Positions 49,031-63,162 of a stretch of DNA of 64,000 nt are shown one piece after another (position 1 is the stretch's first letter; the number at the start of each line of letters is the position of its first letter). The stretch is taken from assembly GCA_003577105.1 (NCBI GenBank), contig QEUQ01000009.1:1326-65325 (forward strand). Reading direction: 5' to 3'. The notes beneath the pieces were generated by a model. The model worked only from the letters and a program-made list of their open reading frames with translations. It did no database searches and was not told where the DNA came from. The DNA is from Acidobacteriota bacterium. Its GTDB lineage: Bacteria > Actinomycetota > Acidimicrobiia > ATN3. The translations under genes and the position numbers were made by a program.

Positions 49031-49798
49031 CTATTTCAAGACCGATTGACCGGTGCAGAGAGTAAACGGTGAATCACCTTGCAGGAACGAGGCACAAGAG
49101 CCCGAGATCTTTGTGACCTTGTAGTTCGTCGCGAAAGTCTCACCGGCACCGACCGTATATGTGGTTCCGTTGACCTTCACGATGGCCTTCTGAGTTGATC
49201 CATCTCTCACAATCTCCGACAGAGTCAACGAGCTAGTCGAGGCCTGTTGAGTACCAGAAGTGGATCCACCCTGCGGCGATGGAGATGCCGTCGCGCCTCC
49301 GGTCGTGGTTCCTCCGCCTGTCGTTGTTGAGCTACCACCTGTCGTCGGGCAGGCGAATGTGCACTTGAATGGATTCCTCGCGCTGTACTGCTGATATGAC
49401 TCTGATACATCGGCGCTCAGACCCGGGTCCAGCGATGGTGCAGGGCTAGCCGTTGATCCTCCCTGGCCCGGCGACGCGGTCCCCCCCGGCTTGCCCTGGG
49501 TACCAGTCGCGGTACCTGTGGGCCGCGGCGCGGCGGTCCCACCTGTTGTAGTCGACGGAGCATCATCTCCCCCGCCGAAAAGCAAGAACACCGCTGCTCC
49601 GATCAGAACGAGGGCGAGCACCATACCCCCAATTATCAGAGGAGTCTTACTCCCGCCTGACTTCGTTTCATCCGAAACTACGCCCTCTGGAGGCATGCCC
49701 TCGGGCGGAATCCCATCTGGCCCGGGAACCGCAGGAGGAACGCCATCGGGGGGTACCGGAGCCTGCCCAGGTGGTGGCGGTGGATAGTTCGTAGCCAT
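49031..49798 (-). CDS. Pro/Thr/Gly-rich single-pass membrane protein, last gene of the pilM-pilN-pilO operon. Possible PilP-like or other pilus-assembly accessory protein.
   Basis: Pro-rich N-terminus (PPPPPGQAPVPPDGVPP...), one TM helix (LIIGGMVLALVLIGAAVFLLF), a long T/G/S-rich linker, and a ~70-aa C-terminal beta-rich domain (IVKVNGTTYTVGAGETFATNYKVTKI). It lies 27 nt downstream of pilO. Confidence 0.5.
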   Translation of the reverse strand: MATNYPPPPPGQAPVPPDGVPPAVPGPDGIPPEGMPPEGVVSDETKSGGSKTPLIIGGMVLALVLIGAAVFLLFGGGDDAPSTTTGGTAAPRPTGTATGTQGKPGGTASPGQGGSTASPAPSLDPGLSADVSESYQQYSARNPFKCTFACPTTGGSSTTTGGGTTTGGATASPSPQGGSTSGTQQASTSSLTLSEIVRDGSTQKAIVKVNGTTYTVGAGETFATNYKVTKISGSCASFLQGDSPFTLCTGQSVLK

Positions 49799-49825
49799 GT
49801 CAGTGTCTCACCTCAATCCATTCGC

Positions 49826-50680
49826 TCACGGGCCTGCCCGGCCTGCGGTATTGCCGGTCTGACCTGTAGTCCCACCCTGCTGCGGCCCAGGCGATGCCGG
49901 GATCTGGCCAGGCTCAGTGCCGGCGCCCGAAGGAGGTTGGGGAACGGGCGAGTCCGAACGAGGTACATTCATCTGCCCCGAGCAGTTTCCGAGGTTGTTA
50001 GGCTCCTGTCCCTCGGAGAATCCAGGCTGCGGCGGAGTACATCCGGCTTCTGGCGGACCTGGAATCTGGCCGCGCTGAGTTGGTGATCCGTCTGCGGGGT
50101 AGATCAGAGCCAGGTCTGTGTCACTCGGCGTCCACGGAAGCCCAGAATTTGTCGCGAACATCCGCCCGGCTATTTGGCTGTTCAGCCCACCAGTCTTTGA
50201 ATCAACGCTTATCTGCAGCTGATCGACCACCACAGATCGCCGGAGCTTCTCAAGACGGATTAGGTAGTCAATGGTCTGGAAGTAACCGCCCTCAATGCTC
50301 ACCGCCAGCTTGATCTCGGCCGCCATCAGCCCGCTTGCCTTCGGCGCAGTAGGAATCGTTGGTTTCAGCGACATCCACTTCACGCCAGCTTGCCGGGCTA
50401 TGTCGTAGTTCGCCCATATGAACTCTGCCAGGTCGGGTGTGTCGGGCACGTTCTGCCTGAATTCAACGGTAGCTGCTCGGATCGACGTTTCGTTGCGCTT
50501 TAGCTCTTGGCGCCTCGCAATGGTGCCTTCCAGCTGCTGGGTTCGATCCTTCGCGTCCTGGAGCCTCTGCTGTTCCTTCGTGAGAGTAGACCCCTGACCT
50601 TGAAAGACGAAGAGGAACCACACCGCGATAATCGTTACCGCGACTACGGCACTGACTACAATTGGAAGATAGCGCTTCAC
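49826..50680 (-). CDS. pilO: Type IV pilus assembly protein PilO-like
   Basis: Single N-terminal TM helix, a coiled-coil region (QQRLQDAKDRTQQLEGTIARRQELK), then a PilO-like periplasmic domain. It immediately follows pilN. The start is uncertain (GTG at 50678-50680 vs 50749). Confidence 0.7.
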   Translation of the reverse strand: MKRYLPIVVSAVVAVTIIAVWFLFVFQGQGSTLTKEQQRLQDAKDRTQQLEGTIARRQELKRNETSIRAATVEFRQNVPDTPDLAEFIWANYDIARQAGVKWMSLKPTIPTAPKASGLMAAEIKLAVSIEGGYFQTIDYLIRLEKLRRSVVVDQLQISVDSKTGGLNSQIAGRMFATNSGLPWTPSDTDLALIYPADGSPTQRGQIPGPPEAGCTPPQPGFSEGQEPNNLGNCSGQMNVPRSDSPVPQPPSGAGTEPGQIPASPGPQQGGTTGQTGNTAGRAGP

Positions 50681-51519
50681 TTCGCACCTCCAGTGGTTGG
50701 GCGACTTGCGCCACCCGTAGCGCCCGCACCGTAGTAGGAGTGCCCGCATGAACCAGTTCCGGCGCCCGCCAGGTTGTCAAAGCCTCTAGCGGCACAGCGC
50801 CCCATCCATCCCCATGAGTACGGCGTGAGGTAGCTGGTTCCCTGGAAAGTCACAACCGGGAAGGACGTCGATCCTTCTCCTGAAGTCTCCTTCAGCGTCT
50901 GGCTCGTAATCCAAGCGTAGGTCATCGACGGCATGTTCCTATTGACTCGATATAGCCAATTGGCAACGTCTCGATGCGACTTGGCCGTAGCCGACACCTG
51001 CACAGTTCCGATCGGAGTCTTGTCACTTACCTTGATTTCCTTGCCTCCGCCGGAAGACTTCGGAGCAGTCGACGAGCTCGTCGATGGCTTAGCCGCCCCC
51101 CCGCTAATAGGCTTAGAAGCGGGCGCCTTCTTGCCAGCCTCTGGATCAACGAGGCCTTTGAAGGAAGTCAGGTAGACACCGTCAGGCATCGTCGCGGCGA
51201 TCTCCTGAAGCACCTTCGGCCAGCTGACTTCGTTCAGCCAGACGCTCTGGACGACCTTCTTCTGGTTATCGAAATTGCGCTGCAGCTCGTCAAGGTATTC
51301 CAGTTCGCGAGCTTTCAGCTCTAGCTCCTTGACCTTTTGTTCCTGCTTGTTCGCCTGGTCTCGCACGCTCTTCGCTTGAGCCGCTCTCAACAGCGTTATG
51401 ACAGCAAGTATTCCTATGAGCGCCGCCAGTCCGATAATTGCGTACACCCAAACCTGTCGCTGCCGGTTCTTCTCGCCAATCTCGGCTGGCAGCAAGTTGA
51501 TTCTGCGACGTGGCTCCAT
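50677..51519 (-). CDS. pilN: Type IV pilus assembly protein PilN
   Basis: Hallmark INLLP motif at the N-terminus, a TM helix, a coiled-coil and a periplasmic domain. The C-terminus is a Ser/Gly-rich low-complexity region. Confidence 0.8.
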   Translation of the reverse strand: MEPRRRINLLPAEIGEKNRQRQVWVYAIIGLAALIGILAVITLLRAAQAKSVRDQANKQEQKVKELELKARELEYLDELQRNFDNQKKVVQSVWLNEVSWPKVLQEIAATMPDGVYLTSFKGLVDPEAGKKAPASKPISGGAAKPSTSSSTAPKSSGGGKEIKVSDKTPIGTVQVSATAKSHRDVANWLYRVNRNMPSMTYAWITSQTLKETSGEGSTSFPVVTFQGTSYLTPYSWGWMGRCAARGFDNLAGAGTGSCGHSYYGAGATGGASRPTTGGAK

Positions 51520-51522
51520 CTG

Positions 51523-52584
51523 TCAGGCCTCCCCTAGTACTAGCCCAACAGCCACACTCATTAGCGGCTGTGCTTCGGCGAGCGCCTCTGTGGGCATTCC
51601 CAAGTTCGCGAGCTCTACAAACTGGAGCGGATGACCGGGTTCAACCGGAATTCCTAGTGCCGCCGAGAGCTTTTCACCAAGACCCGGGACACGCGATCCG
51701 CCACCGGACAAGATGATCCGTCCAACCGTTGCGGCGCTTGGCTGAGCCATGTAGAAGTCGAGTGAGCCTCTGATTTCATCGACAACCGCGGCGGCACGGT
51801 CATCAATAATTTGGACAGCTTGTTCACTGCCGGGCGGAGGCGCAGACCCTGGTACTGAGAGCTGCCTCTTCACCTGCTCGGCGGTCATGGGATCCATGGT
51901 GAGGCCCACCGACAGGGCCTCGGTGAAGTTGTTGCCGCCAAGTATCAGAATGCGAACGAAGCGTGGTTTCCCGTCTTCGTGGACGACGATGTTGGTGACT
52001 GAATGCCCGATATCAACGATGGCCTCGGCGGCGATCGGCTGGTCGAGTCCGTAGTCACTGACCAGCGACCTCAGCAGGGCCAGGGGGGAGAGATCGATCG
52101 CCTGTGGCGTCAACTTTGCGTATTCGAGAGCCCCGAGCATCTGCTCGATCATGTCGCGCTGCGCCGCAACGATGAGGACCCTCATCATTCGCTCGCCTTC
52201 AGGCCCTTGAATTTCGTCGAGAATCATGAAGTCGAGGATTGCCTCCTCAACTGGGATTGGAATGAATTCTTGTACCTGGAACTCCAGGGCGGCCCGCAGG
52301 TCCTCCTCGGCCATCCATGGAAGGTCCACCTGCCGTACAACTACCTTCTGGTTTGAGACTCCGAGGACGATGTTTCTCTTGCCCTTGAAGCCTGCCTGCG
52401 ACCACAGTCGTTGCAGCGCCTCACCCACTGCTGCAGGATCAGCTACCTCTCCGTCGCGCATCGCACCTGGTGGAACTTCGATTTGACCGAACTTCGTTAG
52501 TACCGGACGCGCCTTGCCAAGCATGAGCTCGGCGCCACGCACCGCGCTGGTTCCCAAGTCGAGTCCGATCACAGTCTTAGGCAC
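51523..52584 (-). CDS. pilM: Type IV pilus assembly protein PilM (actin-like ATPase fold)
   Basis: IGLDLGTSAVRGAEL N-terminus, a PilM/FtsA-like fold across 353 aa. Confidence 0.88.
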   Translation of the reverse strand: MPKTVIGLDLGTSAVRGAELMLGKARPVLTKFGQIEVPPGAMRDGEVADPAAVGEALQRLWSQAGFKGKRNIVLGVSNQKVVVRQVDLPWMAEEDLRAALEFQVQEFIPIPVEEAILDFMILDEIQGPEGERMMRVLIVAAQRDMIEQMLGALEYAKLTPQAIDLSPLALLRSLVSDYGLDQPIAAEAIVDIGHSVTNIVVHEDGKPRFVRILILGGNNFTEALSVGLTMDPMTAEQVKRQLSVPGSAPPPGSEQAVQIIDDRAAAVVDEIRGSLDFYMAQPSAATVGRIILSGGGSRVPGLGEKLSAALGIPVEPGHPLQFVELANLGMPTEALAEAQPLMSVAVGLVLGEA

Positions 52585-52586
52585 GG

Positions 52587-52781
52587 TCAGCCCCTCTCAA
52601 CCTGAACTGACGAACGCATCAAGTAAGAAACCAGGTCTTGCCGGCGGATCCTGTAACTTCTTCCGACCCTCACTGCGTCGAGCTGCCCGCGCTTTATGAG
52701 TCTGTAAACGGTCATGTTCGAGACTCGCATCATCGATGCCACCTCGCTGACCGTAAGAAGTTCAACTCTTGGGACGGCCAT
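52587..52781 (-). CDS. Small helix-turn-helix DNA-binding protein, excisionase/BldC (MerR-like) family
   Basis: 64 aa; LLTVSEVASMMRVSNMTVYRLIKRGQLDAVRVGRSYRIRRQDLVSYL matches the excisionase-family HTH. It ends 2 nt before the pilM start, making it the first gene of the pilMNO operon. Confidence 0.8.
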   Translation of the reverse strand: MAVPRVELLTVSEVASMMRVSNMTVYRLIKRGQLDAVRVGRSYRIRRQDLVSYLMRSSVQVERG

Positions 52782-53179
52782 ATTTCAGCACTCCCAGATT
52801 CGCCCCGGCAATTGCCGCTACGCATCTCCAACCCCGCAGTTGATTCGGTTCCACAGCAGGAAAACTTTACCCATCCAGCATCACTGATTGACTCAGGCAA
52901 CACCAGCAACAGCTCTCCGGAGGCCATTTGCCGCTGGATGCCAACAAGTGAGACGCATTGGTGAGCTGAGGAAGTTCCATCGATCGCGCCGTGACCGCGC
53001 GCGGATTTAGCAGGTGAGCCTGCTGATCCCCACAACGGGCGTTGTGCTCCGATTGACTGGATCCAACTCAATTCGCGAACTTCCCGCGTCTCGTCGGAAT
53101 CCGCCCTTGACCCCGAGATGCGAAAGCTTAGCATGTTTGCTTGCTTTGCGCATCTCTTTGCAAGAGATAGCTACTTCGA

Positions 53180-53989
53180 TCACAAGCCACCCAGGAGCTT
53201 GGTATATGCGCTCCAGATGCCGCTGCCAACAAATAGCGCTGTGAGCGATCCGAGCGCGAGATACGGACCGAAGGGTATCGCTTTACCGAACTCACCTCGC
53301 CCAATGACGATCAGAAACAGGCCAAGAACGGTTCCATACGCGAACGACAAGAGCACGCCCGTCAACAGGACGGCCGCCCCGCTGAAACCAAGCACCATCC
53401 CTATCAGCAGCGCCAAACGAACATCGCCAAAGCCCATCCACTTGGGATTTACTTCGTGGATCAGCCGAAGCCCGCCGCTGAAACCAACTGCGCCCAGCAA
53501 AGAGACCCCTACTGAACCAGGGCGCCCCTCCATTACCGCCGCGATAGCCAACAACGGCAAACACAGCACCAGCGACCACCACACGATCCGCGACGGAATG
53601 CGCTTGTGTTCCAGATCCGTGACAGTAATCGTCACCAGAGCAAAAGAAAAGACTAGATACAGCGGCAATTCCCAAGCTAGGCCGGTCTCAGCGGCAATTG
53701 CCCCGAAGATTCCCGCCATTGCGATCTCGGTGAACAGATAGCGAGCTGGAATGCGCCATCCGCAGCTGCGACACCGCCCCCGGAGGAGCAAGAAAGACGC
53801 TAAGGGAATGTTTTCCCACCACTCAAGAGGCCTACAGCAGTTTGGGCAACGCGACGCCGGCCGAATCACTGACCGGCCTTCCGGTACTCTCGACGCCACA
53901 ACATTGGCGAACGAGCCGAATGCCAGACCCAAAGCCCCGGCACCCACAGCCAAAACCGCCCGCGCACCTTCACTCGAAGACATCTTCAC
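53180..53989 (-). CDS. pilD: Prepilin peptidase (A24 family, PilD)
   Basis: N-terminal tetracysteine zinc motif (CPNCCRPL...CRSCGWRI) and polytopic membrane domain with catalytic Asp motifs (DLEHKRIP, GFGDVRLAL). Confidence 0.88.
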   Translation of the reverse strand: MKMSSSEGARAVLAVGAGALGLAFGSFANVVASRVPEGRSVIRPASRCPNCCRPLEWWENIPLASFLLLRGRCRSCGWRIPARYLFTEIAMAGIFGAIAAETGLAWELPLYLVFSFALVTITVTDLEHKRIPSRIVWWSLVLCLPLLAIAAVMEGRPGSVGVSLLGAVGFSGGLRLIHEVNPKWMGFGDVRLALLIGMVLGFSGAAVLLTGVLLSFAYGTVLGLFLIVIGRGEFGKAIPFGPYLALGSLTALFVGSGIWSAYTKLLGGL

Positions 53990-54048
53990 CTTGCTCTCGT
54001 CGCGTTCGCCCTTCCGATCGGGCGGACGACGATACTACCCCCTCGCGC

Positions 54049-54076
54049 AAATTAGCCCGCCAAAGCGGGCTAATTT
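54049..54076 (-). terminator. Hairpin terminator downstream of the pilin gene
   Basis: Perfect inverted repeat AAATTAGCCCGC-caaa-GCGGGCTAATTT located 34-61 nt after the pilin stop codon. Confidence 0.6.
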
Positions 54077-54109
54077 GCCGATTCTGCCTGCTGGCAGCAC
54101 TGAGTTAGA

Positions 54110-54649
54110 TCAGTGCCTCCAACCTGCTGAAGAATCCGTGCTAGCACCGGCTCCCGTGCAAGGGAACTCGAGTGCGTGACTACCATCACCAGTGGCTCCG
54201 CCACCGCCCTCATGGTCATAGCTGGTTCCGGTTCCGTTACCGCCATCGACCTTTGAGTCGCAAATGGAGAACTCATGCTGATGGGCGCTGAGCACAGTGA
54301 GTACAACCGTGCCGTCGACTGCTTGGGTACCTGTCGGCCCCGAGACAACGCCAACTTCGTTCTGACCCGTTGACGGGCCACCAGGCACCCACGTCAGAGC
54401 CTGCTCGATCCCCGCGAGGGTCGGCTGGTCCTGCGTATAGGCCTGAGAGTCGGTGTAGTACACGTTCTCAGCGGTCAATGCATTCCGGACGCTTGTCTGA
54501 GCTGCCCTGTCCTGGGCACGTTCCCGTGCGCCGAGGAAGGTCGGGATCGCGATAGCAATCAGGATGGCAATGATGAGCACCACGATCATGAGCTCGATGA
54601 GGGTGAAGCCCTCGTCGCGACCGGTAATTGATCCACGCATTTTCTTCAT
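54110..54649 (-). CDS. pilA: Type IV pilin (major pilin, class III signal peptide)
   Basis: Leader MKKMRGSITGRDEG followed by FTLIELMIVVLIIAILIAIAIPTF (prepilin peptidase site G|F, Glu+5). Strong RBS GGAGGTG 7 nt upstream of the ATG at 54647-54649. The upstream 42 codons in the ORF track are not part of the gene. Confidence 0.88.
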   Translation of the reverse strand: MKKMRGSITGRDEGFTLIELMIVVLIIAILIAIAIPTFLGARERAQDRAAQTSVRNALTAENVYYTDSQAYTQDQPTLAGIEQALTWVPGGPSTGQNEVGVVSGPTGTQAVDGTVVLTVLSAHQHEFSICDSKVDGGNGTGTSYDHEGGGGATGDGSHALEFPCTGAGASTDSSAGWRH

Positions 54650-54734
54650 ATAGTTCACCTCCTTCCCCAAAGAGGATTTGCATGCAGGCCAAAGCCTGCC
54701 CGCACACCTATCATCGGCGCCTACGGGCGGAATC

Positions 54735-54751
54735 TTGAGAACGGTTCTCAA
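54735..54751. promoter_or_regulatory. Perfect 17-bp palindrome TTGAGAAC-g-GTTCTCAA about 85 bp upstream of the pilin start codon; candidate operator
   Basis: Exact 8-bp inverted repeat with a 1-nt spacer in the pilC-pilin intergenic region. Confidence 0.5.
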
Positions 54752-54788
54752 TTTTCTCGACCAAACCGTTTCCACCTCGGGAATCTGC

Positions 54789-55949
54789 CTATTGGATCAA
54801 GTTCACAATATTGAACATTGGCATATAGAGCGCGATGACCATGCCACCGACAGCAATACCCATGACTGCGATCAGAAGCGGTTCGATCAGCGATGTCAGC
54901 GCGTCGACCGCCGCCGAAACCTCTTGGTCGTAGAACTCAGAGATCTTCAGAAGCATGGTGTCAATGGCACCCGTCTCCTCACCCACCGCCATCATCTGAA
55001 CCACCATCGGTGGGAACACCGAATGCTCCAAGAGGGGCCGTGCAATTGACTCACCCTCCCTCACGCTGGTTTGAACATCGATAATCGCTGCTGAAATCAC
55101 TCGATTGCCTACCGTTTGGCTGACGATATCAAGTGCTTCCAGAATCGGAACACCTGACTTGATCAGCTCAGCCAGGGTTCGAGTGAAGCGCGACAGGGCG
55201 ACTTTGTGAAAAAGGGGGCCGAAGATCGGAACCTTGATCAGGAATGTGTCCCAAATCATCTCCCCTTTGTCGGTCTTCTTCCAGGCCCGCAGCCCGAAGA
55301 CCGCACCAATGCTCAAGATTGCCAGTAGCCACCAGTAGTTCTTGACGATTTCCGATACGCCAATGAGCATCTGCGTAGGCGCCGGCAACTTGCCTCCGAG
55401 CTCGTCATAGAGCTTCTTGAACATCGGTACAACAAAGATCAGCATTGCGCTCACGATAAGCAGAACCATCACAAACACAACTACTGGGTACGTCATTGCG
55501 GACTTGACTTTGCCTCGCAACTCGACTTGCGATTCGATAGTCTCGGCGATCCTCACGAGTACGTGATCGAGGTTACCCCCGATCTCCCCGGCCCTTACCA
55601 TTGAGACATATAGATCATTGAATACTTTGGGGTGCTTCTCCAGTGCCCCGGAAAGCGATGACCCGGTTTCCACATCGTCACGGACCAGCCTGACGACATC
55701 AGCAAGGGTCGCAAACTGGCGGCTGAAGATCGACAGATCCTTCAGCTTTACGCGATTGCCACCAATAGAGATCTCCTTCTTGAGACCTCCGGCATCTTTC
55801 TCATCGATGGAGATAGGTATGTAACCCATCTCGCGTAATTTGGCAGCGACAACAGTGGTGTTGTCGGCGTCGAGCTCACCCTCGACGATTTGTCCCTGTT
55901 TGTCCCTTACTTTGTATACGAAAGTTCCAGCCACCGCTGCTCCTCTCAA
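54789..55949 (-). CDS. pilC: Type IV pilus inner-membrane platform protein PilC (GspF/T2SS-F family)
   Basis: Duplicated T2SS-F domains with three TM segments across 386 aa. Confidence 0.9.
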   Translation of the reverse strand: MRGAAVAGTFVYKVRDKQGQIVEGELDADNTTVVAAKLREMGYIPISIDEKDAGGLKKEISIGGNRVKLKDLSIFSRQFATLADVVRLVRDDVETGSSLSGALEKHPKVFNDLYVSMVRAGEIGGNLDHVLVRIAETIESQVELRGKVKSAMTYPVVVFVMVLLIVSAMLIFVVPMFKKLYDELGGKLPAPTQMLIGVSEIVKNYWWLLAILSIGAVFGLRAWKKTDKGEMIWDTFLIKVPIFGPLFHKVALSRFTRTLAELIKSGVPILEALDIVSQTVGNRVISAAIIDVQTSVREGESIARPLLEHSVFPPMVVQMMAVGEETGAIDTMLLKISEFYDQEVSAAVDALTSLIEPLLIAVMGIAVGGMVIALYMPMFNIVNLIQ

Positions 55950-57586
55950 CCGCGCCCGAGAAGGCGCATCAGGTCATCCTCGTTGGCGCAGCGCTCTCGC
56001 GCCAGGTCCAAAGAGATCCGCCCTGCTTTGACCAGGTCCGCAAGGGACTGGTCCATAGTCTGCATGCCGAATCGACCGCCAGCCTGCATGACTGAATAAA
56101 TCTGATGGGTCTTGCCCTCACGTATCAGATTTCGGACTGCTGGCGTAGCAATCAGAACCTCCACTGCTACCACGCGCCCTCGGCCATCTGCGGTCTGGCA
56201 AAGCTGCTGGGTGCAGACGGCCTGCAGTGAGGCGGCAAGCTGGACGCGCACTTGCTGCTGCTGATGCGGCGGAAAAACGTCGATAATTCTGTCAATTGAC
56301 TGCGGGCAGTCCTGCGTGTGGAGCGTGCCAAAGACCAAGTGGCCGGTCTCGGCAGCCGTGATTGCCGTCTGGATCGTCTCAAGGTCGCGCATTTCGCCGA
56401 CCAGGATCACATCTGGATCTTGGCGAAGAACGCGTTTGAGCGCATTCGCGAAACTGAGGGTGTCTTCTCCAACCTCGCGCTGGTTCACCACGGCGCGCTT
56501 GTGCGCGTGAAGGAACTCGATCGGGTCCTCAACAGTCATGATGTGAACGGGGCGTTCCCGGTTGATGATGTCGACGATCGATGCAAGAGTTGTTGACTTG
56601 CCTGAACCTGTAGGTCCCGTGACGAGCACCAGGCCGCGAGGTAATGCGGCAAAGGAAGTCAGGACTGGCGGCACCCCCAGCTTTTCGAGGGGAAGGATAT
56701 TCATCGGGATCACTCGCATGACCGAGCCGATCGAGTCCCGCTGGAAGAAAACATTGACCCTGAAGCGGGCTTTGCCTGGCAACGGATGGGACATATCGAG
56801 TTCCATCTCAGCCTCAAGCTTTTCGCGCTGTTTCTGCGTGAGAATCGCGTAGATCATCTTGCGAAGGGGCCCGGGCTTGAGGATCGGGAAGTCCGTTAGC
56901 GGATACAAGTCGCCGTGGACACGCACCACCGGATGCGTTCCCACCGTCAGGTGGAGGTCCGACGCGCCCTTCTCGAGGACTATCTCGAGCAATTCGTTGA
57001 CATGAATGTCTGCGGCGTCACGCTCCGGCTGTGCGGCCGGCGCCTGTTCCTTTACTCCCTGTGCAGCTTCAAGTAGGCGTTCATCTGCAACTGATACGTC
57101 GCCGGTCTTCAGACTTCCGTGTGTCTGAGGTGCTGCCGCAGCCGCTTCTGCCGCAGCGCCGTGCACCTGCTTGATGACGGCGGCAATCTCTCCCTTGTCG
57201 GCGAGGGCTGGAATCACCTGCCAACCGACACCCTGCTCAATTGCCTGAATAGCGTCTGAATTGTGTGGATCGCCCATCGCCACAAGAAGCTTGTCTTCTT
57301 CAAAGGCAACTGCAATCAAGTTGAACCGGACACACAGTTCCGGTGGAATCGCCGTAACCGCGTCGGGGTGGAGCGGTTGAGAAGCAAGATCGACAAACCT
57401 GAGGCCGCTTTGTTCAGCCAACGCGCCGAGAATCTGCTTCTCGCTCAGCCGGCCTTCATCGGTGAGCAACTTGAATAACGGGGTGCCTGTCGCCTGCTCC
57501 CGCCCGAGGGCATCCACCAGCTCTTCGCTGGAGAGAAGCTGCTTCTTTACGAGCAAGTCGCCTAGACGTTGAGACGCCGCGGACAT
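55946..57586 (-). CDS. pilT: Twitching-motility retraction ATPase PilT with an N-terminal GspE-N/MshEN-like extension of about 190 aa
   Basis: PilT core: Walker A GPTGSGKSTT, Asp/His boxes, and the PilT-specific AxRNLIRE motif (PAVRNLIREGKTHQI). The N-terminus contains RLGDLLVKKQLLSSEELVDALGREQ, resembling the T2SS-E N-domain/MshEN fold. Confidence 0.85.
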   Translation of the reverse strand: MSAASQRLGDLLVKKQLLSSEELVDALGREQATGTPLFKLLTDEGRLSEKQILGALAEQSGLRFVDLASQPLHPDAVTAIPPELCVRFNLIAVAFEEDKLLVAMGDPHNSDAIQAIEQGVGWQVIPALADKGEIAAVIKQVHGAAAEAAAAAPQTHGSLKTGDVSVADERLLEAAQGVKEQAPAAQPERDAADIHVNELLEIVLEKGASDLHLTVGTHPVVRVHGDLYPLTDFPILKPGPLRKMIYAILTQKQREKLEAEMELDMSHPLPGKARFRVNVFFQRDSIGSVMRVIPMNILPLEKLGVPPVLTSFAALPRGLVLVTGPTGSGKSTTLASIVDIINRERPVHIMTVEDPIEFLHAHKRAVVNQREVGEDTLSFANALKRVLRQDPDVILVGEMRDLETIQTAITAAETGHLVFGTLHTQDCPQSIDRIIDVFPPHQQQQVRVQLAASLQAVCTQQLCQTADGRGRVVAVEVLIATPAVRNLIREGKTHQIYSVMQAGGRFGMQTMDQSLADLVKAGRISLDLARERCANEDDLMRLLGRG

Positions 57587-57720
57587 AGAAAAATGGCCCT
57601 CCCGGACACGATTGTTTGCATCAGATCATCGACAGAGCGAATTCGAATCTTGACCTGAGGACAGTTAAGGGTATCAGCACATCTCACCCCCATGTGCGCA
57701 AACAAGCGTTGGTCAGTGAG

Positions 57721-59400
57721 CTAGACCACCACTCTCATGATCTCGTCGATTGCAGTTATTCCCAGTCGTACCTTGGCCAGGCCATCGAGACGAAGCGTCT
57801 TCATCCCTTCCATGACGGCTATCTTCTTCATCTCTTCAGACGTCCTGTGCTCTACGACCATTCGCTCGATCTCTTCGCTCAAGATCATGATCTCGTGGAG
57901 CGCGACTCGCCCTCGATATCCCGTATTCGAACAGGACTTGCACCCTGCGGGCTTGTATATCACCGGTAATTCCTCTTCTTCGTCAAGCGGCCACCCGCAC
58001 TCGACGAGTGCCTCCTCTGTCGGCTGATAGGGCTCCTTACACTTCTCACATAGCCGCCGTGCAAGGCGCTGCGCAAGCACGCAATCCAGCGCCGAACCAA
58101 CTAGGAACGCCTCGACGCCCATCTCGAAAAGGCGTGTAGCGGCAGACGGCGCGTCATTTGTGTGAAGCGTCGAAAGGACCAGGTGACCGGTCAAGGCCGA
58201 CTCAATCGCGATTGTCGCGGTCTCTTTGTCTCTGATTTCACCCACCATCATGATGTCGGGGTCGCAGCGCACCAGCGATCGAAGGGCCGAAGCGAATGTC
58301 AGTCCAGCTCGCGTGTTCACCTGGATTTGAGAAAGGCCCGACAGCCTGAACTCAACTGGATCTTCGACTGTCATGACGTTCTTCGCGTCGTCGTTAATAA
58401 CGTTGAGAATCGAGTAGAGGGTCGTGGTCTTGCCTGATCCTGTCGGACCTGTTGCCAGTATCGCTCCGTATGGCTTGTTGTATGCGTTTGCCAGCTTCTT
58501 CGCGTTGTCCTCAAGTAGCCCCAGTTGTTCAAGCGGCACAATGCCTGCCTGCTTGTCGAGGATTCTCATGACGAACTTCTCGCCCCAAACCGTCGGAACG
58601 CACGCGGCGCGCAGGTCGATCTCACGCCCCGAGATACTCATTGAGATCCGGCCATCTTGAGGAATTCGCCGCTCGGCGATGTCCATGTCCGACATGATCT
58701 TCAGGCGGCTTACAAGCGAGTTCTGCACGCTCTTAGGGCTCCGCATATGTTCGTGCAAAACTCCGTCAATGCGATAGCGGATTCGAAGGTCCTTGGCCTG
58801 GGGCTCAATGTGGATGTCCGATGCCCGATCCTGTACAGCTTGGGCGATCAGGGTGTTTGCAAGCTTGACTATGGGAGCGTCTTCAACGACCTCTGTCAGT
58901 CCCTCAAGGGCATCGCTATCGTCGTCGCCTGCGGCAATCTCGCCAGTCAGCGCCTCGACGTCGGTCTCCATGCGAGCCATCTTGTCGAGCGCATCCATGA
59001 CTGCGGCCTGCGTGGCGACGACGACTTCGAGTTCTCGCTTAGTGACGCGCGCGACGTCGTCACGTGCAATCACGTTCTGGGGATCGCTCATTGCGACGAT
59101 GAGCCGTTCCTCATCGAAGCCGATCGGTATCAGCGAATACCGGCGAGCGATGTTGTCAGGTACGAGTGAGGCCGCAACCGGATCGATCCCGTACTCAAGA
59201 AGATCGACGAACTCATAGCCTGCCTGGTCGGCAAGGATCGCCAGAAGGTCATCCTCGGTGAGGATTTCCATTTCGATCAGGACGCGGCTGAGCGCCTTCC
59301 CGGTCTCTTCGACCTCGGCCAATACCTCGTCGAGTTGCGTTGCATCGATGATGCCTTCCTCGACAAGAAGCATTCCGAAACTGGTGACATCTTCGGACAA
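57721..59400 (-). CDS. pilB: Type IV pilus assembly (extension) ATPase PilB/GspE family
   Basis: N-terminal MshEN-like motif (FGMLLVEEGIIDATQLDEVLAEVEE), Walker A GPTGSGKTTT, and a tetracysteine zinc motif (CEKCKEPY...CKSCSNTGYRGR). Confidence 0.9.
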   Translation of the reverse strand: MSEDVTSFGMLLVEEGIIDATQLDEVLAEVEETGKALSRVLIEMEILTEDDLLAILADQAGYEFVDLLEYGIDPVAASLVPDNIARRYSLIPIGFDEERLIVAMSDPQNVIARDDVARVTKRELEVVVATQAAVMDALDKMARMETDVEALTGEIAAGDDDSDALEGLTEVVEDAPIVKLANTLIAQAVQDRASDIHIEPQAKDLRIRYRIDGVLHEHMRSPKSVQNSLVSRLKIMSDMDIAERRIPQDGRISMSISGREIDLRAACVPTVWGEKFVMRILDKQAGIVPLEQLGLLEDNAKKLANAYNKPYGAILATGPTGSGKTTTLYSILNVINDDAKNVMTVEDPVEFRLSGLSQIQVNTRAGLTFASALRSLVRCDPDIMMVGEIRDKETATIAIESALTGHLVLSTLHTNDAPSAATRLFEMGVEAFLVGSALDCVLAQRLARRLCEKCKEPYQPTEEALVECGWPLDEEEELPVIYKPAGCKSCSNTGYRGRVALHEIMILSEEIERMVVEHRTSEEMKKIAVMEGMKTLRLDGLAKVRLGITAIDEIMRVVV

Positions 59401-59529: not shown

Positions 59530-60717
59530 TCACGACTCTCTTGTGACCTTGCCTCGCGATGGGCGGCCGACGAACATATCGGGCGCACGCCTTGGCCGCG
59601 CATACAGCTTCTCCGGCATCGACGGCCCGGCAACAAGCTCGCTCCACTGAAAGAACAATCCAAACAACGGATGGTCTGCTTCCAGGAAAACTGCCGATCC
59701 GTCGCGGAACCCCAAGACGACGTGGCGCACATCCGGTTCAGCGGCAAAGGCAGGGGGCCCGACTCTGGGTGGTGGCAGTTCGTTGCGATCCGACACCTGC
59801 CCGGGTGTCGGTACCGCAGGAGGAGACGCGACTCTTTCCGCGCTCTGATCTACTTCCTGTTCGACCGATGTGCGAGCTATTGCAGCCGGTGGAGGTTGCT
59901 CGGTTTCGAGCGTGACCTCGGGTAGCGGAGTGACCGGACCGGTGTCGCGCTCGGGTGCGACTGATGGCAGTGGCGGGATCGGGCCGGTGTCGCGGGCAGC
60001 GACTACTGGTGGCGGTGGAGTGACCGGACCGGTGTCGCGCTCGGGTGCATCGAGATGTGCGGCGGCGTTTGCGAGCGGCGAATCCATGAGGGATCCGCGG
60101 GGCCCATCACCTGCCATGTGCACCTCGGGGCCCGGTGCCGAATCGTCATCGTCCGCCTCGCCGAAATCAAGGTCATCCAGGATTCCTGCTAGTGGCTGAG
60201 TTCTGTGCTCCAGGATCGAAGACGCGGCCGGCTGGGGAGCCACAGGAGCCCCGGGAGATGGAACGGTCCAGGTCTGCCTTTGCTCTTGGCTGCTGAATTC
60301 GTACGGATCGACCTGCGACCCAGGGAAGTCCTGCTGGACCTGCCCGTAAACCGCTGGCAGTGGAGGAGGCGGCGGCGGCGCAAAGTGGGCCGGGGGCGGA
60401 GCATAAGGCGATTCGGCGTGAGTGCCGACCTCATATCCACCGGCCATGGCTCGGTCAACAGACGCTTGTGTGGATGCAGGCAAATTCCACTCGGGGGTGG
60501 GTGGGACAACCGAACTTGGAGACGCGAGAGAGTATCCGCTCCCGTGTGGCTCATCAGATGTTCGGCTAAATAAATCCTCAAGCTGAGACGAGGGCTCTGC
60601 GGAGAGCGCTGGCCCATCGGGAGGCGGGAAATACCCGGGGGCAGTCGGCACGCCTTCGGCGGCCGTGGAGGGGTCTTCCTCACCTTGGGGCGGGAGGCTG
60701 AAATCCATCCCAGTCAC
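59530..60717 (-). CDS. Proline-rich, predicted disordered protein with tandem PERDTGPVTPLP repeats and a ~70-aa C-terminal globular domain. Last gene of the GTPase module upstream of pilB.
   Basis: 395-aa ORF dominated by P/A/S with low complexity. It carries three or more imperfect repeats (APERDTGPVTPPPP / ARDTGPIPPLPS / APERDTGPVTPLPE). The C-terminal segment is VRHVVLGFRDGSAVFLEADHPLFGLFFQWSEL. It starts 5 nt after the GTPase gene ends. Confidence 0.55.
   Translation of the reverse strand: MTGMDFSLPPQGEEDPSTAAEGVPTAPGYFPPPDGPALSAEPSSQLEDLFSRTSDEPHGSGYSLASPSSVVPPTPEWNLPASTQASVDRAMAGGYEVGTHAESPYAPPPAHFAPPPPPPLPAVYGQVQQDFPGSQVDPYEFSSQEQRQTWTVPSPGAPVAPQPAASSILEHRTQPLAGILDDLDFGEADDDDSAPGPEVHMAGDGPRGSLMDSPLANAAAHLDAPERDTGPVTPPPPVVAARDTGPIPPLPSVAPERDTGPVTPLPEVTLETEQPPPAAIARTSVEQEVDQSAERVASPPAVPTPGQVSDRNELPPPRVGPPAFAAEPDVRHVVLGFRDGSAVFLEADHPLFGLFFQWSELVAGPSMPEKLYARPRRAPDMFVGRPSRGKVTRES
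59905..60050. repeat. About three imperfect tandem DNA repeats of ~44 bp (GGAGTGACCGGACCGGTGTCGCGCTCGGGTGC-type) inside the Pro-rich gene
   Basis: Near-identical units at ~59925-59957 and ~60012-60046, with a degenerate copy between them. They encode the PERDTGPVTPLP protein repeats. Confidence 0.7.
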
Positions 60718-60722
60718 ACCCC

Positions 60723-61301
60723 CTATGTCGCCGCAGCCGCGGGGGCACTCTCATCGAGCATTGCCAATACCGCGTAGAGGAGAGCCAGAAGTACGTCCTT
60801 GGCGCTCTGGCGGCTGACAGCTTCACACGGAACCACAACCTCATCGCCCTTCAGGCCGAGGCTCTTACGGACAGCCTCTATGGCGCCCTCGTCACCGGTC
60901 GCCCGGTTTGCTGCAACCACAAAAGGGACCTCCGCTAGACCCTTGAAGTATTCGAGGATCTTTCTGGCCTCATCCAAAGACTCCTCGCGAGTCACGTCCA
61001 CCATGACGATGAAACCAAGCATGCCCCGCGCGAGGACATCCCACATGAAGTCGAACCTCTCCTGCCCCGGGGTACCAAACAGATATAGGACTATCTCATC
61101 GCCCTCAAGCTGAAATGTGATCTTTCCCCAGTCCATTGAGACCGTCGTCATGCCCTTAACAGCCCGGCTACCGTCTGAGACCGGCTGCTCTGACGAGAAG
61201 AGCTGTAGCTCCGAAAGAGCACTGATGAAGGTTGTCTTGCCAGCGGCGAATGGACCCGTGACGACAACCTTGACCGAGGTGCTATTCCCCGGCGCAGCCA
61301 C
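60723..61301 (-). CDS. Ras-like small GTPase of the MglA/CvnD family
   Basis: KVVVTGPFAAGKTTFI P-loop, TPGQERF switch II (DxxGQ-like), and a (V)DVT region. Length and architecture parallel MglA and the conservon CvnD. It starts 2 nt after the DUF4388 gene ends. Confidence 0.8.
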   Translation of the reverse strand: MAAPGNSTSVKVVVTGPFAAGKTTFISALSELQLFSSEQPVSDGSRAVKGMTTVSMDWGKITFQLEGDEIVLYLFGTPGQERFDFMWDVLARGMLGFIVMVDVTREESLDEARKILEYFKGLAEVPFVVAANRATGDEGAIEAVRKSLGLKGDEVVVPCEAVSRQSAKDVLLALLYAVLAMLDESAPAAAAT

Positions 61302-62700: not shown

Positions 62701-63162
62701 CTAACCGAGCGGATCTGCCGCTGTGCGCAGCTCTGGCATTTGCACAACCGTCGGCTGATCGAGAATCGATGCAATCTTTGAGGATGTGTGGCGCATCTCG
62801 TAGAGGATCAAACCGATCTTCCCGGAGGGCCTTGTAATCGCTGCAAGGACCGCGGTCTCCCCTGCCGCCATCAAGAAGACAAAACCGTATTCACCCTCAA
62901 CGAATATCTGCGCCAGGTCCCCGCGACCGAGCCCCTCGGCGGCCTTTTCCCCAAGGGAAAGCAAAGCCGCCGACATTGCTCCGAGCCGGTCCTCCTCGAT
63001 CTGAGGCGGCAAAGCCGAAGCCATCGGAAGCCCATCCATTGAGACAACAGCAGCGGCCTCGACTTCAGTACTTGCCTGTACGAACTCGTCAAGAGCCATC
63101 GCCAATTGCTCGGCCCTGCTCGACATCAAACCTCCCGTGATGCTCCGAATTCCGACTCGCAC
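62701..63162 (-). CDS. Roadblock/LC7 (MglB-like) domain protein
   Basis: VVSMDGLPMASA...RLGAMSAALLSLGEKAAEGLG...GFVFLMAAGETAVLAAI pattern of Roadblock/LC7 family proteins (MglB/CvnB-like). First gene of the four-gene module. Confidence 0.8.
   Translation of the reverse strand: MRVGIRSITGGLMSSRAEQLAMALDEFVQASTEVEAAAVVSMDGLPMASALPPQIEEDRLGAMSAALLSLGEKAAEGLGRGDLAQIFVEGEYGFVFLMAAGETAVLAAITRPSGKIGLILYEMRHTSSKIASILDQPTVVQMPELRTAADPLG

What the first reader, a model, noticed from the sequence alone, without database searches (positions are those of the whole stretch)
49031..59400. Complete type IV pilus locus, with no secretin gene in the window, inside an otherwise mycobacteria-like housekeeping region
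The locus encodes pilB, pilT, pilC, a class-III-signal pilin, pilD, and a pilM-pilN-pilO operon. No secretin (PilQ) gene is present in this window. A dedicated retraction ATPase together with the PilMNO alignment proteins is a Gram-negative-type architecture that is unusual for Actinobacteria (which more often carry Tad/Flp systems). It implies a retractable pilus for twitching, DNA uptake or adhesion. The terminal gene (49031-49798) is a Pro/Thr-rich single-pass protein of unknown role and could be a lineage-specific PilP-like component.
Basis: partly seen in the sequence, partly recalled or inferred. Interest (0 to 1): 0.65.

Follow-up and report, generated by a model that had tools for sequence, protein, structure and literature searches.

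The report
Secretin-less type IV pilus locus, Acidimicrobiia
This is a real but lineage-typical Gram-positive-style retractable type IV pilus gene cluster from an Acidimicrobiia (Actinomycetota) genome; its unusual parts are a membrane-anchored PilP-like protein although no secretin gene is present, a retraction motor carrying the regulatory N-terminal domain normally seen on the extension motor, and a damaged pilC allele.

Summary
On the minus strand lie pilB, pilT, pilC, one prepilin, pilD, pilM, pilN, pilO and a terminal single-pass gene. No annotated ORF of 300 aa or more in the 64 kb is a secretin.

- The genome is an Acidimicrobiia MAG, mislabelled "Acidobacteria" at NCBI, not mycobacteria-like.
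- PilT plus PilMNO without a secretin is the standard monoderm T4aP layout.
- The order aroE–pilBTC–pilA–pilD–pilMNO–aroC recurs in dozens of related Actinomycetota genomes, so this is vertical inheritance and not a Gram-negative import.

New points:
1. The terminal gene is a PilP/GspC-HR homologue. Its C-terminal fold matches PilP/GspC/GspB exclusively, it shares the RxPF motif with PilP, and it always follows pilO. It is anchored by a TM helix and belongs to a family of more than 1,000 clusters with no Pfam model. Reviews state that PilP is absent from monoderms.
2. PilT (546 aa) carries an N-terminal MshEN domain, 35% identical to PilB's. This is the norm in the clade. Its c-di-GMP motif is degenerate.
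3. The locus extends upstream to a Roadblock–PATAN–small GTPase module, and an excisionase-type HTH gene precedes pilM.
4. This contig's pilC lacks 23 conserved residues that all 69 homologues retain.
5. The window has no minor pilins.

Interest is moderate.

The parts
62701..63162 (-). Roadblock/LC7 protein (conservon CvnB/MglB-like)
   Evidence: Pfam Robl_LC7 66 bits. PDB matches: 7f8m at 4e-22 and CvnB5 3leq at 4e-11. Found together with PATAN and the GTPase upstream of pilB in 6 of 57 related loci.
61304..62686 (-). PATAN (DUF4388) domain protein with an acidic low-complexity tail
   Evidence: Pfam DUF4388 100 bits, residues 4-155; sequence. A PATAN gene sits next to pilB in 35 of 57 related loci. 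In Synechocystis the PATAN domain binds the PilB1 N-terminal region and the PilC N-terminal domain (bioRxiv 10.1101/2021.06.11.447907).
60723..61301 (-). Small Ras-like GTPase
   Evidence: Pfam ATP_bind_1 62 bits and Ras 42 bits. TIGR00231 scores 40.7 bits, just below its 42.5 cut-off. Best PDB matches are Rab GTPases at about 1e-7, not MglA.
59530..60717 (-). Pro-rich, probably disordered 395-aa ORF between the GTPase gene and pilB (lineage-specific; unclear whether it is a real gene)
   Evidence: No family hit. No homologue in the 80 related loci apart from the identical contig L001.
57721..59400 (-). pilB, extension ATPase (MshEN N1 domain plus T2SSE core with tetracysteine motif)
   Evidence: CEKC...CKSC read directly from the translation.
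55946..57586 (-). pilT, retraction ATPase with a fused N-terminal MshEN (N1) domain; 546 aa
   Evidence: TIGR01420 487 bits, residues 196-537. MshEN PF05157 49.8 bits. NF053729 40 bits against a cut-off of 38. PDB PilT 1.9e-122 and MshE-N 1.6e-11. Colinear in 18 aligned homologues, with R7 invariant and L8 and G9 nearly invariant. 35% identical to the PilB N1 domain.
54789..55934 (-). pilC platform protein; this contig's allele has a 23-aa in-frame deletion. The junction lies between 55706 and 55707.
   Evidence: T2SSF x2. An otherwise 100% identical contig has 69 extra nt. All 69 homologues keep the segment 'MINSGLSLLRALxILxEQTE'. NCBI RIK10179.1 is 381 aa, while the 4 other cluster members are 404 aa.
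54110..54649 (-). pilA, the only prepilin in the window (179-aa precursor)
   Evidence: N_methyl 30.5 bits. Motif scan of all six frames. A Cys pair lies near the C-terminus.
53180..53983 (-). pilD, prepilin peptidase/N-methyltransferase
   Evidence: A24_N_bact 102 bits plus Peptidase_A24 41.8 bits. CxxC...CxxC and GFGD read from the translation.
52587..52781 (-). Excisionase-family HTH protein (64 aa); its stop lies 2 nt before the pilM start
   Evidence: TIGR01764 63.6 bits. ORF. Present directly upstream of pilM in 17 of 28 related loci.
51523..52584 (-). pilM (actin-like)
   Evidence: PilM_2 158 bits; TIGR01175 212 bits against a cut-off of 133.
50677..51519 (-). pilN
   Evidence: N-terminal 'RRINLLPAE' motif. 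Pfam PilN 24.9 bits. Family profile against M. xanthus PilN 1.1e-9 over the full length.
49826..50680 (-). pilO
   Evidence: Family profile against M. xanthus PilO 1.4e-18 and P. aeruginosa PilO 4.7e-11. GspM NF040576 1.5e-8.
49031..49798 (-). TM-anchored PilP/GspC-HR-like protein: Pro-rich N-terminus, TM helix, 'YSARNPF' motif, T/G/S linker, 7-strand beta domain
   Evidence: AF2 pLDDT about 90 for the domain. The top 13 Foldseek PDB hits are all GspC-HR, PilP, GspB or LspC. The RxPF motif is shared with bona fide PilP. Found directly after pilO in 13 of 22 loci. The family has 1,176 clusters at E<=1e-10.

Best explanation
The locus is a vertically inherited, monoderm-type (secretin-less) type IVa pilus machine. 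It is characteristic of Acidimicrobiia and allied deep-branching Actinomycetota and sits at a conserved chromosomal site between aroE and aroC.

Proposed mechanism; all steps are inferred from homology:
- PilD cleaves and methylates the single major pilin.
- PilB, docked on PilC and the PilM-PilN-PilO complex, polymerises the pilin.
- PilT depolymerises it, giving a retractable fibre for adhesion, twitching or possibly DNA uptake.

Three lineage features modify the textbook picture.
1. A PilP homologue, anchored by a TM helix as in GspC rather than by a lipid, follows pilO. With no secretin to bind, it most likely stabilises PilN/PilO through its conserved RxPF segment. Its HR beta-domain may contact another extracytoplasmic partner such as the cell wall, the pilus or itself.
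2. Both motors carry homologous MshEN-type N1 domains, so extension and retraction could be controlled through the same interface. Candidate controllers are the neighbouring PATAN protein with its Roadblock/small-GTPase partners, and perhaps a nucleotide second messenger.
3. A small HTH protein is co-transcribed with pilMNOP.

In this particular assembled contig pilC has lost 23 conserved residues. If that allele is real, the machine is probably inactive in that strain.
For: - Component identities.
- Synteny aroE-[Robl-PATAN-GTPase]-pilB-pilT-pilC-pilA-pilD-HTH-pilMNO-X-aroC in many of 80 genome loci from Acidimicrobiia, Nitriliruptoria and other Actinomycetota.
- Composition of the locus is like its flanks.
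- Taxon names of the closest PilT relatives.
- PilP-likeness of the terminal gene: pLDDT about 90; top 13 PDB hits all PilP/GspC/GspB/LspC, TM-score on target up to 0.77; hhalign P=4e-4, in register; shared RxPF segment.
- MshEN-PilT fusion conserved and colinear.
- PATAN binds PilB and PilC in cyanobacteria.
- The window encodes a GGDEF protein and a PASTA-domain PBP typical of Gram-positive envelopes.
- pilC deletion.
Against: - No minor pilins are present in the window. They are usually needed to prime assembly, though several relatives have equally compact loci.
- PilB scores below the PilB equivalog cut-off (628 against 675).
- The PilP-like protein fails the Pfam PilP threshold (10.8 against 25.6 bits), and a sequence profile did not find PilP in the PDB.
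- It is absent from 9 of 22 related loci, so it is not essential.
- The c-di-GMP motif of both N1 domains deviates from even the relaxed consensus (motif from PMC5013675).
- The GTPase is not specifically MglA-like.
- The whole genome could not be checked for a secretin, and no experimental data exist for any T4aP in Actinobacteria (PMC6916266).
Confidence: 0.8

Rival explanations
1. In this genome the locus is a decaying or inactivated relic. The pilC deletion is real, minor pilins are missing and no pilus is made.
For: - The 23 residues missing from PilC are conserved in all 69 homologues.
- The deletion is in the deposited NCBI protein RIK10179.1.
- There is only one prepilin gene in 64 kb.
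Against: - Every other gene is intact and in frame.
- An otherwise 100% identical contig from run SRR7051044, and three further near-identical assemblies, carry full-length pilC. The deletion is therefore a minority variant or an assembly artefact.
- Compact single-pilin loci are common among relatives.
Confidence: 0.2
2. The terminal gene is not a PilP homologue. It is an unrelated small beta-sandwich exported protein, for example a cell-wall-associated protein, that merely resembles the HR fold.
For: - Foldseek E-values are only 0.03-0.4.
- Pfam PilP scores E=0.48.
- hhalign probability is 30-36%.
- The gene is missing from 9 of 22 loci.
Against: - The 13 best structural matches all belong to the PilP/GspC/GspB HR family, after which scores fall off sharply.
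- The overall architecture matches PilP/GspC: membrane anchor, aromatic-rich RxPF segment, disordered linker and C-terminal beta domain.
- Its position is invariant, immediately after pilO.
Confidence: 0.15
3. The cluster was acquired horizontally from a diderm (Gram-negative) donor. This would explain the 'Gram-negative-type' parts (PilT, PilMNO, PilP-like).
For: A PilP-like gene and PilMNO are best known from diderms. G+C dips slightly to 0.556 at 54-56 kb.
Against: - The same locus sits at the same aroE/aroC site in dozens of Actinomycetota genomes from at least two classes.
- All the closest homologues are actinobacterial.
- There are no mobile-element genes or tRNAs at the borders.
Confidence: 0.03
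4. The system is a type II secretion or competence pseudopilus rather than a surface type IVa pilus.
For: - PilB also scores well against GspE (588 bits).
- PilC matches GspF and PilO matches GspM.
- The HR protein is TM-anchored like GspC.
Against: - A dedicated PilT is present.
- PilM and PilN are separate proteins rather than a GspL fusion.
- The pilin is a full-length T4a-type pilin with a C-terminal Cys pair.
- There are no GspH-K pseudopilins, no PDZ domain on the HR protein and no GspD.
Confidence: 0.05

Closest known systems
Monoderm type IVa pili of Firmicutes (Streptococcus sanguinis pil locus; Clostridium perfringens and C. difficile T4P)
   Same: The core set is the same: PilB, PilT, PilC, PilD, PilM, PilN, PilO and class-III pilin(s) clustered in one locus with no secretin (PMC6916266). 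PilB carries an MshEN domain.
   Different: - This locus has a PilP/GspC-HR-like gene after pilO, which is reported absent from monoderms.
- PilT also carries an MshEN N1 domain.
- There is a single pilin and no minor pilins in the locus.
- An upstream PATAN/Roadblock/GTPase module and an HTH gene are present.
- The chromosomal site is fixed, between aroE and aroC.
[quoted passage not shown]
   Same: - The gene lies immediately after pilO.
- The layout is membrane anchor, conserved aromatic/RxPF segment, disordered linker and C-terminal beta-sandwich.
- The fold match has rmsd 2.0-2.3 Å over about 61-63 residues.
   Different: - The anchor is a TM helix (as in GspC) rather than a lipobox.
- There is no PDZ domain.
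- The protein scores below the Pfam PilP threshold.
- The linker is a long Thr/Gly/Ser-rich stretch.
- No secretin partner is encoded in the locus.
- The gene is dispensable in about 40% of related loci.
MshE/PilB MshEN c-di-GMP receptor domain (V. cholerae MshE, PDB 5HTL)
   Same: The N-terminal about 145 residues of both PilB and PilT match MshEN (1.6e-11; Pfam 49.8 and 66.6 bits). The RLG start of motif 1 and the LxxxLxxQ end of motif 2 are conserved in the PilT family.
   Different: - Here the domain is fused to a PilT-type retraction core. No paper in the searched library describes this.
- Motif positions 10 and 24 of repeat 1, and position 3 of repeat 2, deviate from even the relaxed consensus.
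- c-di-GMP binding therefore cannot be assumed.
MglA/MglB polarity module of Myxococcus, the actinobacterial conservon (CvnA-D), and PATAN regulators of cyanobacterial T4P
   Same: A Roadblock/LC7 protein and a small GTPase lie beside a PATAN protein next to pilB. PATAN binds PilB and PilC in Synechocystis, and MglAB homologues often neighbour PATAN genes.
   Different: - The GTPase is not detectably MglA-type.
- There is no CvnA kinase and no CvnC/DUF742.
- The PATAN protein lacks a receiver domain.
- The full trio is present in only about 12% of related loci.

Membership tests
Type IVa pilus machinery (monoderm type) | Extension ATPase of the PilB/GspE type (N1 MshEN, T2SSE core, tetracysteine motif) | tested here: met
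   T2SSE 451 bits and MshEN 66.6 bits. TIGR02538 is the best hit at 628 bits but falls below its 675 equivalog cut-off. CEKC...CKSC seen in the translation.
Type IVa pilus machinery (monoderm type) | Dedicated PilT retraction ATPase (PilT/PilU family, AIRNLIRE-type motif) | tested here: met
   TIGR01420 487 bits against a cut-off of 319. PDB PilT 413 bits against PilU 286 bits. 'AVRNLIRE' present.
Type IVa pilus machinery (monoderm type) | Platform protein with two intact T2SSF domains | tested here: inconclusive
   Two T2SSF matches. However, 23 conserved residues of domain 1 are deleted in this contig, and they are intact in an identical contig.
Type IVa pilus machinery (monoderm type) | Class III signal-peptide pilin (G|F-x-x-x-E) and an A24 prepilin peptidase | tested here: met
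   N_methyl 30.5 bits; the leader ends ...DEG|FTLIE. A24_N_bact plus Peptidase_A24.
Type IVa pilus machinery (monoderm type) | PilM-PilN-PilO alignment complex | tested here: met
   PilM 158 and 212 bits. PilN has the INLLP motif and a profile E-value of 1.1e-9 against M. xanthus PilN. The PilO profile scores 1.4e-18 and 4.7e-11.
Type IVa pilus machinery (monoderm type) | Set of minor pilins | tested here: not met
   The 64-kb window contains only one prepilin motif. Some relatives have 2-4 pilin-like genes between pilC and pilD, and others have none. The rest of the genome was not available.
Type IVa pilus machinery (monoderm type) | No secretin | tested here: inconclusive
   No secretin was found among the annotated ORFs of the window. 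In related loci the gene after pilO/X is aroC. The whole genome could not be tested here.
PilP (PF04351) / GspC HR domain | Passes the Pfam PilP gathering threshold | tested here: not met
   10.8 bits against 25.6, E=0.48. One member hits T2SSC at E=0.18.
PilP (PF04351) / GspC HR domain | HR-type beta-sandwich fold | tested here: met
   AF2 domain pLDDT about 90. The top 13 Foldseek PDB hits are all GspC-HR, PilP, GspB or LspC, with probability 0.89-1.0 and TM-score on target up to 0.77.
PilP (PF04351) / GspC HR domain | Conserved aromatic/RxPF segment N-terminal to the HR domain | tested here: met
   [RKQ][DNS]PF occurs in 156 of 166 family members and in 15 of 21 near-full-length bona fide PilP ('YEAFTY..LRSPFQPP'). 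That this segment binds PilN/PilO comes from my own knowledge of the PilP literature and was not tested.
PilP (PF04351) / GspC HR domain | Lipoprotein anchor (PilP) or TM anchor plus PDZ/coiled coil (GspC) | tested here: not met
   There is a TM helix and no lipobox, and there is no PDZ domain.
PilP (PF04351) / GspC HR domain | Binds the N0 domain of a secretin | not testable with these tools
   No secretin is encoded in the window or in related loci.
MshEN c-di-GMP receptor domain | MshEN/T2SSE_N domain match | tested here: met
   PilT scores PF05157 49.8 bits and NF053729 40.0 bits against a cut-off of 38. PilB scores 66.6 and 48.1 bits. MshE-N PDB 5htl matches at 1.6e-11.
MshEN c-di-GMP receptor domain | [quoted passage not shown] | tested here: not met
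   In PilT, repeat 1 has Q at position 10 and E at position 24, and repeat 2 has F at position 3, T at 7 and R at 11. In PilB, repeat 1 has S at position 1 and V at 24, and repeat 2 has A at position 1, S at 3 and E at 10. None of the PilT N-termini examined matched all 22 positions.
MshEN c-di-GMP receptor domain | Binds c-di-GMP | not testable with these tools
   This needs ITC or DRaCALA with the purified domain.
MglA/MglB polarity module | MglA-family GTPase paired with a Roadblock/LC7 GAP | tested here: inconclusive
   The Roadblock domain is clear. The GTPase is a generic small GTPase and its best PDB hits are Rab proteins, not MglA.
Actinobacterial conservon (CvnA-D) | Four genes: sensor kinase CvnA, Roadblock CvnB, DUF742 CvnC and GTPase CvnD | tested here: not met
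   Only the CvnB-like gene (3leq, 4e-11) and a GTPase gene are present. A PATAN protein takes the middle position, and there is no kinase or DUF742 gene.

The most novel reading that the evidence does not exclude
PilP is not merely a secretin coupler. A large TM-anchored PilP family with no Pfam model is an ancestral part of the cytoplasmic-membrane alignment complex in secretin-less Actinomycetota, possibly linking it to the cell wall. In the same lineage the retraction motor has acquired the extension motor's MshEN N1 domain. PilB and PilT would then compete for, or be switched by, one shared regulator: the PATAN/Roadblock/GTPase module and/or a cyclic dinucleotide. That would be a motor-switching logic different from the diderm models.
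Probability: 0.25. Interest if true: 0.7.

Novelty: new variant of a known kind. Interest (0 to 1): 0.45.

Why it matters
No type IVa pilus has been studied experimentally in Actinobacteria; only Tad/Flp pili have been (PMC6916266).

Reviews use the supposed absence of PilP from monoderms to argue that PilP only connects the inner-membrane complex to the secretin. A conserved PilP homologue in a locus without a secretin gene would let that argument be tested directly, and it points to a secretin-independent role.

A PilT carrying the MshEN/N1 domain offers a natural experiment on what N1 does: platform docking, PATAN binding or nucleotide sensing.

The fixed aroE/aroC location gives an easy marker for finding and comparing these loci. 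At least one cultured relative, Acidiferrimicrobium sp. IK, carries the locus.

Tried and rejected
- Rfam scan of the whole window found no RNA family, so no c-di-GMP riboswitch precedes the pil genes.
- The promoter/terminator consensus scan of 48.7-63.4 kb gave no more sites than shuffled sequence, so it says nothing about operon structure.
- Pfam and NCBIfam on the terminal gene and the Pro-rich ORF gave nothing significant.
- A sequence profile of the terminal-gene family against PDB sequences returned only low-complexity noise and no PilP.
- My first PilP sequence, recalled from memory, was partly wrong. I replaced it with the sequence printed for PDB 2LC4 before using it.
- The motif statistics for PilT N-termini taken from tblastn are partly contaminated by cross-hits to PilB in loci whose PilT lacks N1. 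For PilT I rely on the curated 18-sequence alignment.
- I rejected HGT from diderms, T2SS/Com identity, and the idea that the PilT extension is an annotation fusion. The ORF is continuous and colinear in all homologues.
- An apparent gap where argG should be was an artefact of my greedy ORF picker; argG is present at 3414-4613.

Full report

Yes. All long ORFs between 49 and 63 kb run on the minus strand. Profile searches identify them as follows.
- pilB (57721-59400): T2SSE 451 bits plus MshEN. TIGR02538 is the best NCBIfam hit at 628 bits, below its 675 equivalog cut-off.
- pilT (55946-57586).
- pilC (54789-55934): two T2SSF domains.
- One prepilin (54110-54649): leader MKKMRGSITGRDEG|FTLIELM.
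- pilD (53180-53983): A24_N_bact plus Peptidase_A24.
- pilM (51523-52584): PilM_2 158 bits, TIGR01175 212 bits.
- Two weakly scoring bitopic proteins, then a 255-aa single-pass protein (49031-49798).

- PilT test. The core (residues 196-537) scores 487 bits on TIGR01420 against a cut-off of 319. It matches solved PilT structures at 1.9e-122, well above PilU at 286 bits. It carries 'AVRNLIRE' and lacks PilB's tetracysteine motif.
- PilN/PilO test. I built family profiles from orthologues in related loci. The pilN family hits M. xanthus PilN over its full length (1.1e-9) and has the N-terminal INLLP motif. The pilO family hits M. xanthus PilO (1.4e-18) and P. aeruginosa PilO (4.7e-11).

Neither refutation condition is met. 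No Pfam-scanned ORF of the window carries a secretin domain.

**2. Where does the window come from?**

The closest PilT relatives are named Acidimicrobiia or Acidimicrobiales, at 60-80% identity. G+C is about 59%.

Exact-sequence look-ups place the window on a 74,731-bp NCBI MAG contig labelled 'Acidobacteria bacterium' (PilT is RIK10180.1). That label conflicts with everything else and looks like a taxonomic mislabel.

The rest of the window shows the classical Actinomycetota gene order: argHGRFDBJC, pheTS, infC, hisG, rib genes, rpe, fmt, def, priA, metK, coaBC, gmk, pyr/car genes, efp, pepP, aroQ-aroB-aroK-aroC. 'Mycobacteria-like' therefore just means actinobacterial synteny. A PASTA-domain PBP (25-1314) fits a Gram-positive envelope.

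**3. Is the locus unusual for its lineage?**

No. One scan of species-representative genomes returned 80 loci. tblastn of the window's proteins shows the order aroE-(PATAN...)-pilB-pilT-pilC-pilA-(more pilins)-pilD-HTH-pilM-pilN-pilO-(X)-aroC-aroK-aroB again and again. It occurs in Acidimicrobiia, Nitriliruptoria (Egicoccus, Egibacteraceae) and unclassified Actinomycetota.

The locus is therefore ancestral and vertically inherited at a fixed site, not an import. T4aP in monoderm Actinobacteria had already been noted computationally (PMC6668835). PilB/PilT/PilC/PilD/PilMNO without PilQ is the standard monoderm set (PMC6916266; PMC4471445). NCBI's pipeline already names PilT and the T2SS-F protein in the record.

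**4. The terminal gene is a PilP/GspC-HR homologue.**

Homologues were collected by word search, from the loci and by an exhaustive profile search. The last gave 2,094 representative clusters at E<=1e-3 and 1,176 at E<=1e-10; none of the 17 homologues listed carries a precomputed Pfam domain.

All share the same plan: a short N-terminus, one TM helix, a conserved aromatic segment ending in [RK][DN]PF, a Thr/Gly/Ser-rich linker and a C-terminal domain of about 70 residues.

Evidence for the PilP relationship:
- AlphaFold2 with a 17-sequence alignment folds the C-terminal domain as a seven-strand sandwich with pLDDT about 90.
- In Foldseek against the PDB, the 13 best matches are exclusively GspC HR domain, PilP (P. 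aeruginosa, N. meningitidis, M. xanthus), GspB and LspC. Probabilities are 0.89-1.0, rmsd is 2.0-2.3 Å over about 61-63 residues for the best matches, and TM-score on the target reaches 0.77. After these, scores collapse to unrelated folds.
- Sequence support is weak but consistent. Pfam PilP scores E=0.48. hhalign against a PilP family alignment gives P=4e-4 over 43 columns in the expected register.
- Bona fide PilP proteins have 'YEAFTYxAxxLRSPFQPP' ahead of their beta domain (15 of 21). This parallels 'ETFEVFTTKNPFxPL' and the window's 'SESYQQYSARNPF' (156 of 166 family members).
- An HMM of the domain finds the gene directly after pilO in 13 of 22 loci that have enough downstream sequence, and nowhere else in those loci. 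The other nine loci go straight from pilO to aroC.

I conclude that it works like PilP and is probably homologous to it. It fails formal Pfam membership, is TM-anchored like GspC rather than lipidated, and is accessory. Reviews state that PilP is absent from monoderms and use this to argue that PilP is only a secretin linker. This family contradicts that generalisation, provided these organisms really lack a secretin. I could check that only for the window and the related loci.

**5. PilT carries an MshEN N1 domain.**

The 546-aa ORF is continuous. The listed top 120 database relatives are 514-588 aa and have both PF05157 and PF00437. An 18-sequence alignment is colinear, with R7 invariant and L8 and G9 nearly invariant. 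Residues 5-116 match V. cholerae MshE-N (1.6e-11). The domain is 35% identical to the N1 domain of the neighbouring PilB from residue 1.

Some other Actinomycetota loci (L063-L080) have a short, canonical PilT directly after pilB, so the fusion is clade-specific. I found no paper describing an MshEN-PilT fusion.

Whether the domain binds c-di-GMP is open. NF053729 passes only narrowly (40 against 38 bits). Against the published motif (PMC5013675), repeat 1 of PilT has Q at the Gly position and E at the Gln position, and repeat 2 lacks the Gly at position 3. PilB is also degenerate. A GGDEF protein is encoded at 18543-19811, so the messenger probably exists in this organism.

**6. Additional locus members.**

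Upstream of pilB lie a Pro-rich 395-aa ORF with no homologues, a small Ras-like GTPase, a PATAN/DUF4388 protein and a Roadblock/LC7 protein, followed by aroE.

Among 57 related loci with enough upstream sequence, 29 have PATAN alone next to pilB, 6 have the full trio, 1 has Roadblock plus GTPase and 21 have none.

In Synechocystis the PATAN domain binds the N-terminal region of PilB1 and the PilC N-terminal domain, and MglA/MglB homologues often neighbour PATAN genes. Regulation of the motors by this module is therefore a reasonable inference. However, the GTPase is not specifically MglA-like, and the set is not a conservon.

A 64-aa excisionase-family HTH gene (TIGR01764, 63.6 bits) ends 2 nt before pilM. 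It is present upstream of pilM in 17 of 28 loci.

**7. Two caveats on function in this genome.**

First, the window's pilC lacks 69 nt relative to an otherwise 100% identical 14-kb stretch of a contig assembled from SRR7051044. The missing 23 residues, 'MINSGLSLLRSLNILAEQTESKA', are conserved in all 69 homologues. The four other members of its 90% identity cluster are full length. The deletion is either a minority loss-of-function allele or an assembly artefact; no flanking repeat explains it.

Second, only one prepilin motif exists in the 64 kb. Relatives range from one to four pilin-like genes between pilC and pilD. Minor pilins, if any, lie elsewhere in the genome.

**8. Verdict.**

The locus itself is an ordinary, lineage-typical, already auto-annotated monoderm T4aP system. 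Its variant features make it a new variant of a known kind with moderate specialist interest. These are a TM-anchored PilP homologue without a secretin, MshEN domains on both motors and an associated PATAN/Roadblock/GTPase module. All functional statements are inferred from homology, and no actinobacterial T4aP has been studied experimentally.

Noticed in passing
window 55706/55707 (inside pilC, 54789-55934): There is a 69-nt in-frame deletion relative to an otherwise 100% identical contig (Logan SRR7051044_105408). It removes 23 residues that are conserved in all 69 homologues. The deposited NCBI protein RIK10179.1 has the deletion, while four near-identical assemblies do not.
   Followed up: yes
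whole window (NCBI contig of 74,731 bp, locus tags DCC49_...): The public record labels the MAG 'Acidobacteria/Acidobacteriota bacterium'. The gene order, the PASTA-PBP and all the closest homologues indicate Acidimicrobiia (Actinomycetota), so this is probably a taxonomic mislabel.
   Followed up: partly
window 59530-60717 (-): A 395-aa Pro-rich ORF with 'ERDTGPVTP' repeats lies between the GTPase gene and pilB. It has no TM helix, no family hit and no homologue in the 80 related loci. It may be a lineage-specific disordered protein or not a gene at all.
   Followed up: partly
window 18543-19811 (+): A GGDEF-domain protein (136 bits) is one of the few plus-strand genes. It shows the organism probably makes c-di-GMP, which bears on the MshEN domains of PilB and PilT.
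   Followed up: no
window 14050-15564 (-): A single 504-aa ORF combines a SpoU/TrmH rRNA methylase domain (residues 121-259) with HisKA plus HATPase_c histidine-kinase domains (273-490). This is an odd fusion, or two genes merged by a missing stop codon.
   Followed up: no
window 52782-53179: About 400 nt between pilD and the HTH gene hold no convincing ORF, no Rfam match and no consensus promoter. The gap is longer than the same spacer in relatives (about 150 nt in L008).
   Followed up: partly
L074 15834-18281; L069/L062/L015 between pilC and pilD: One relative (L074) has a PilP-like protein with two tandem HR domains. Several relatives encode very large prepilin-like proteins (400-590 aa after the cleavage motif) between pilC and pilD, possibly tip adhesins or minor pilins that this window lacks.
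   Followed up: partly
L063-L080 (e.g. L064 10001-11068): A group of unclassified Actinomycetota MAGs has the same aroE-pilB-pilT-pilC locus but with a short, canonical PilT lacking the MshEN domain. The fusion is therefore clade-specific and its origin could be dated.
   Followed up: partly
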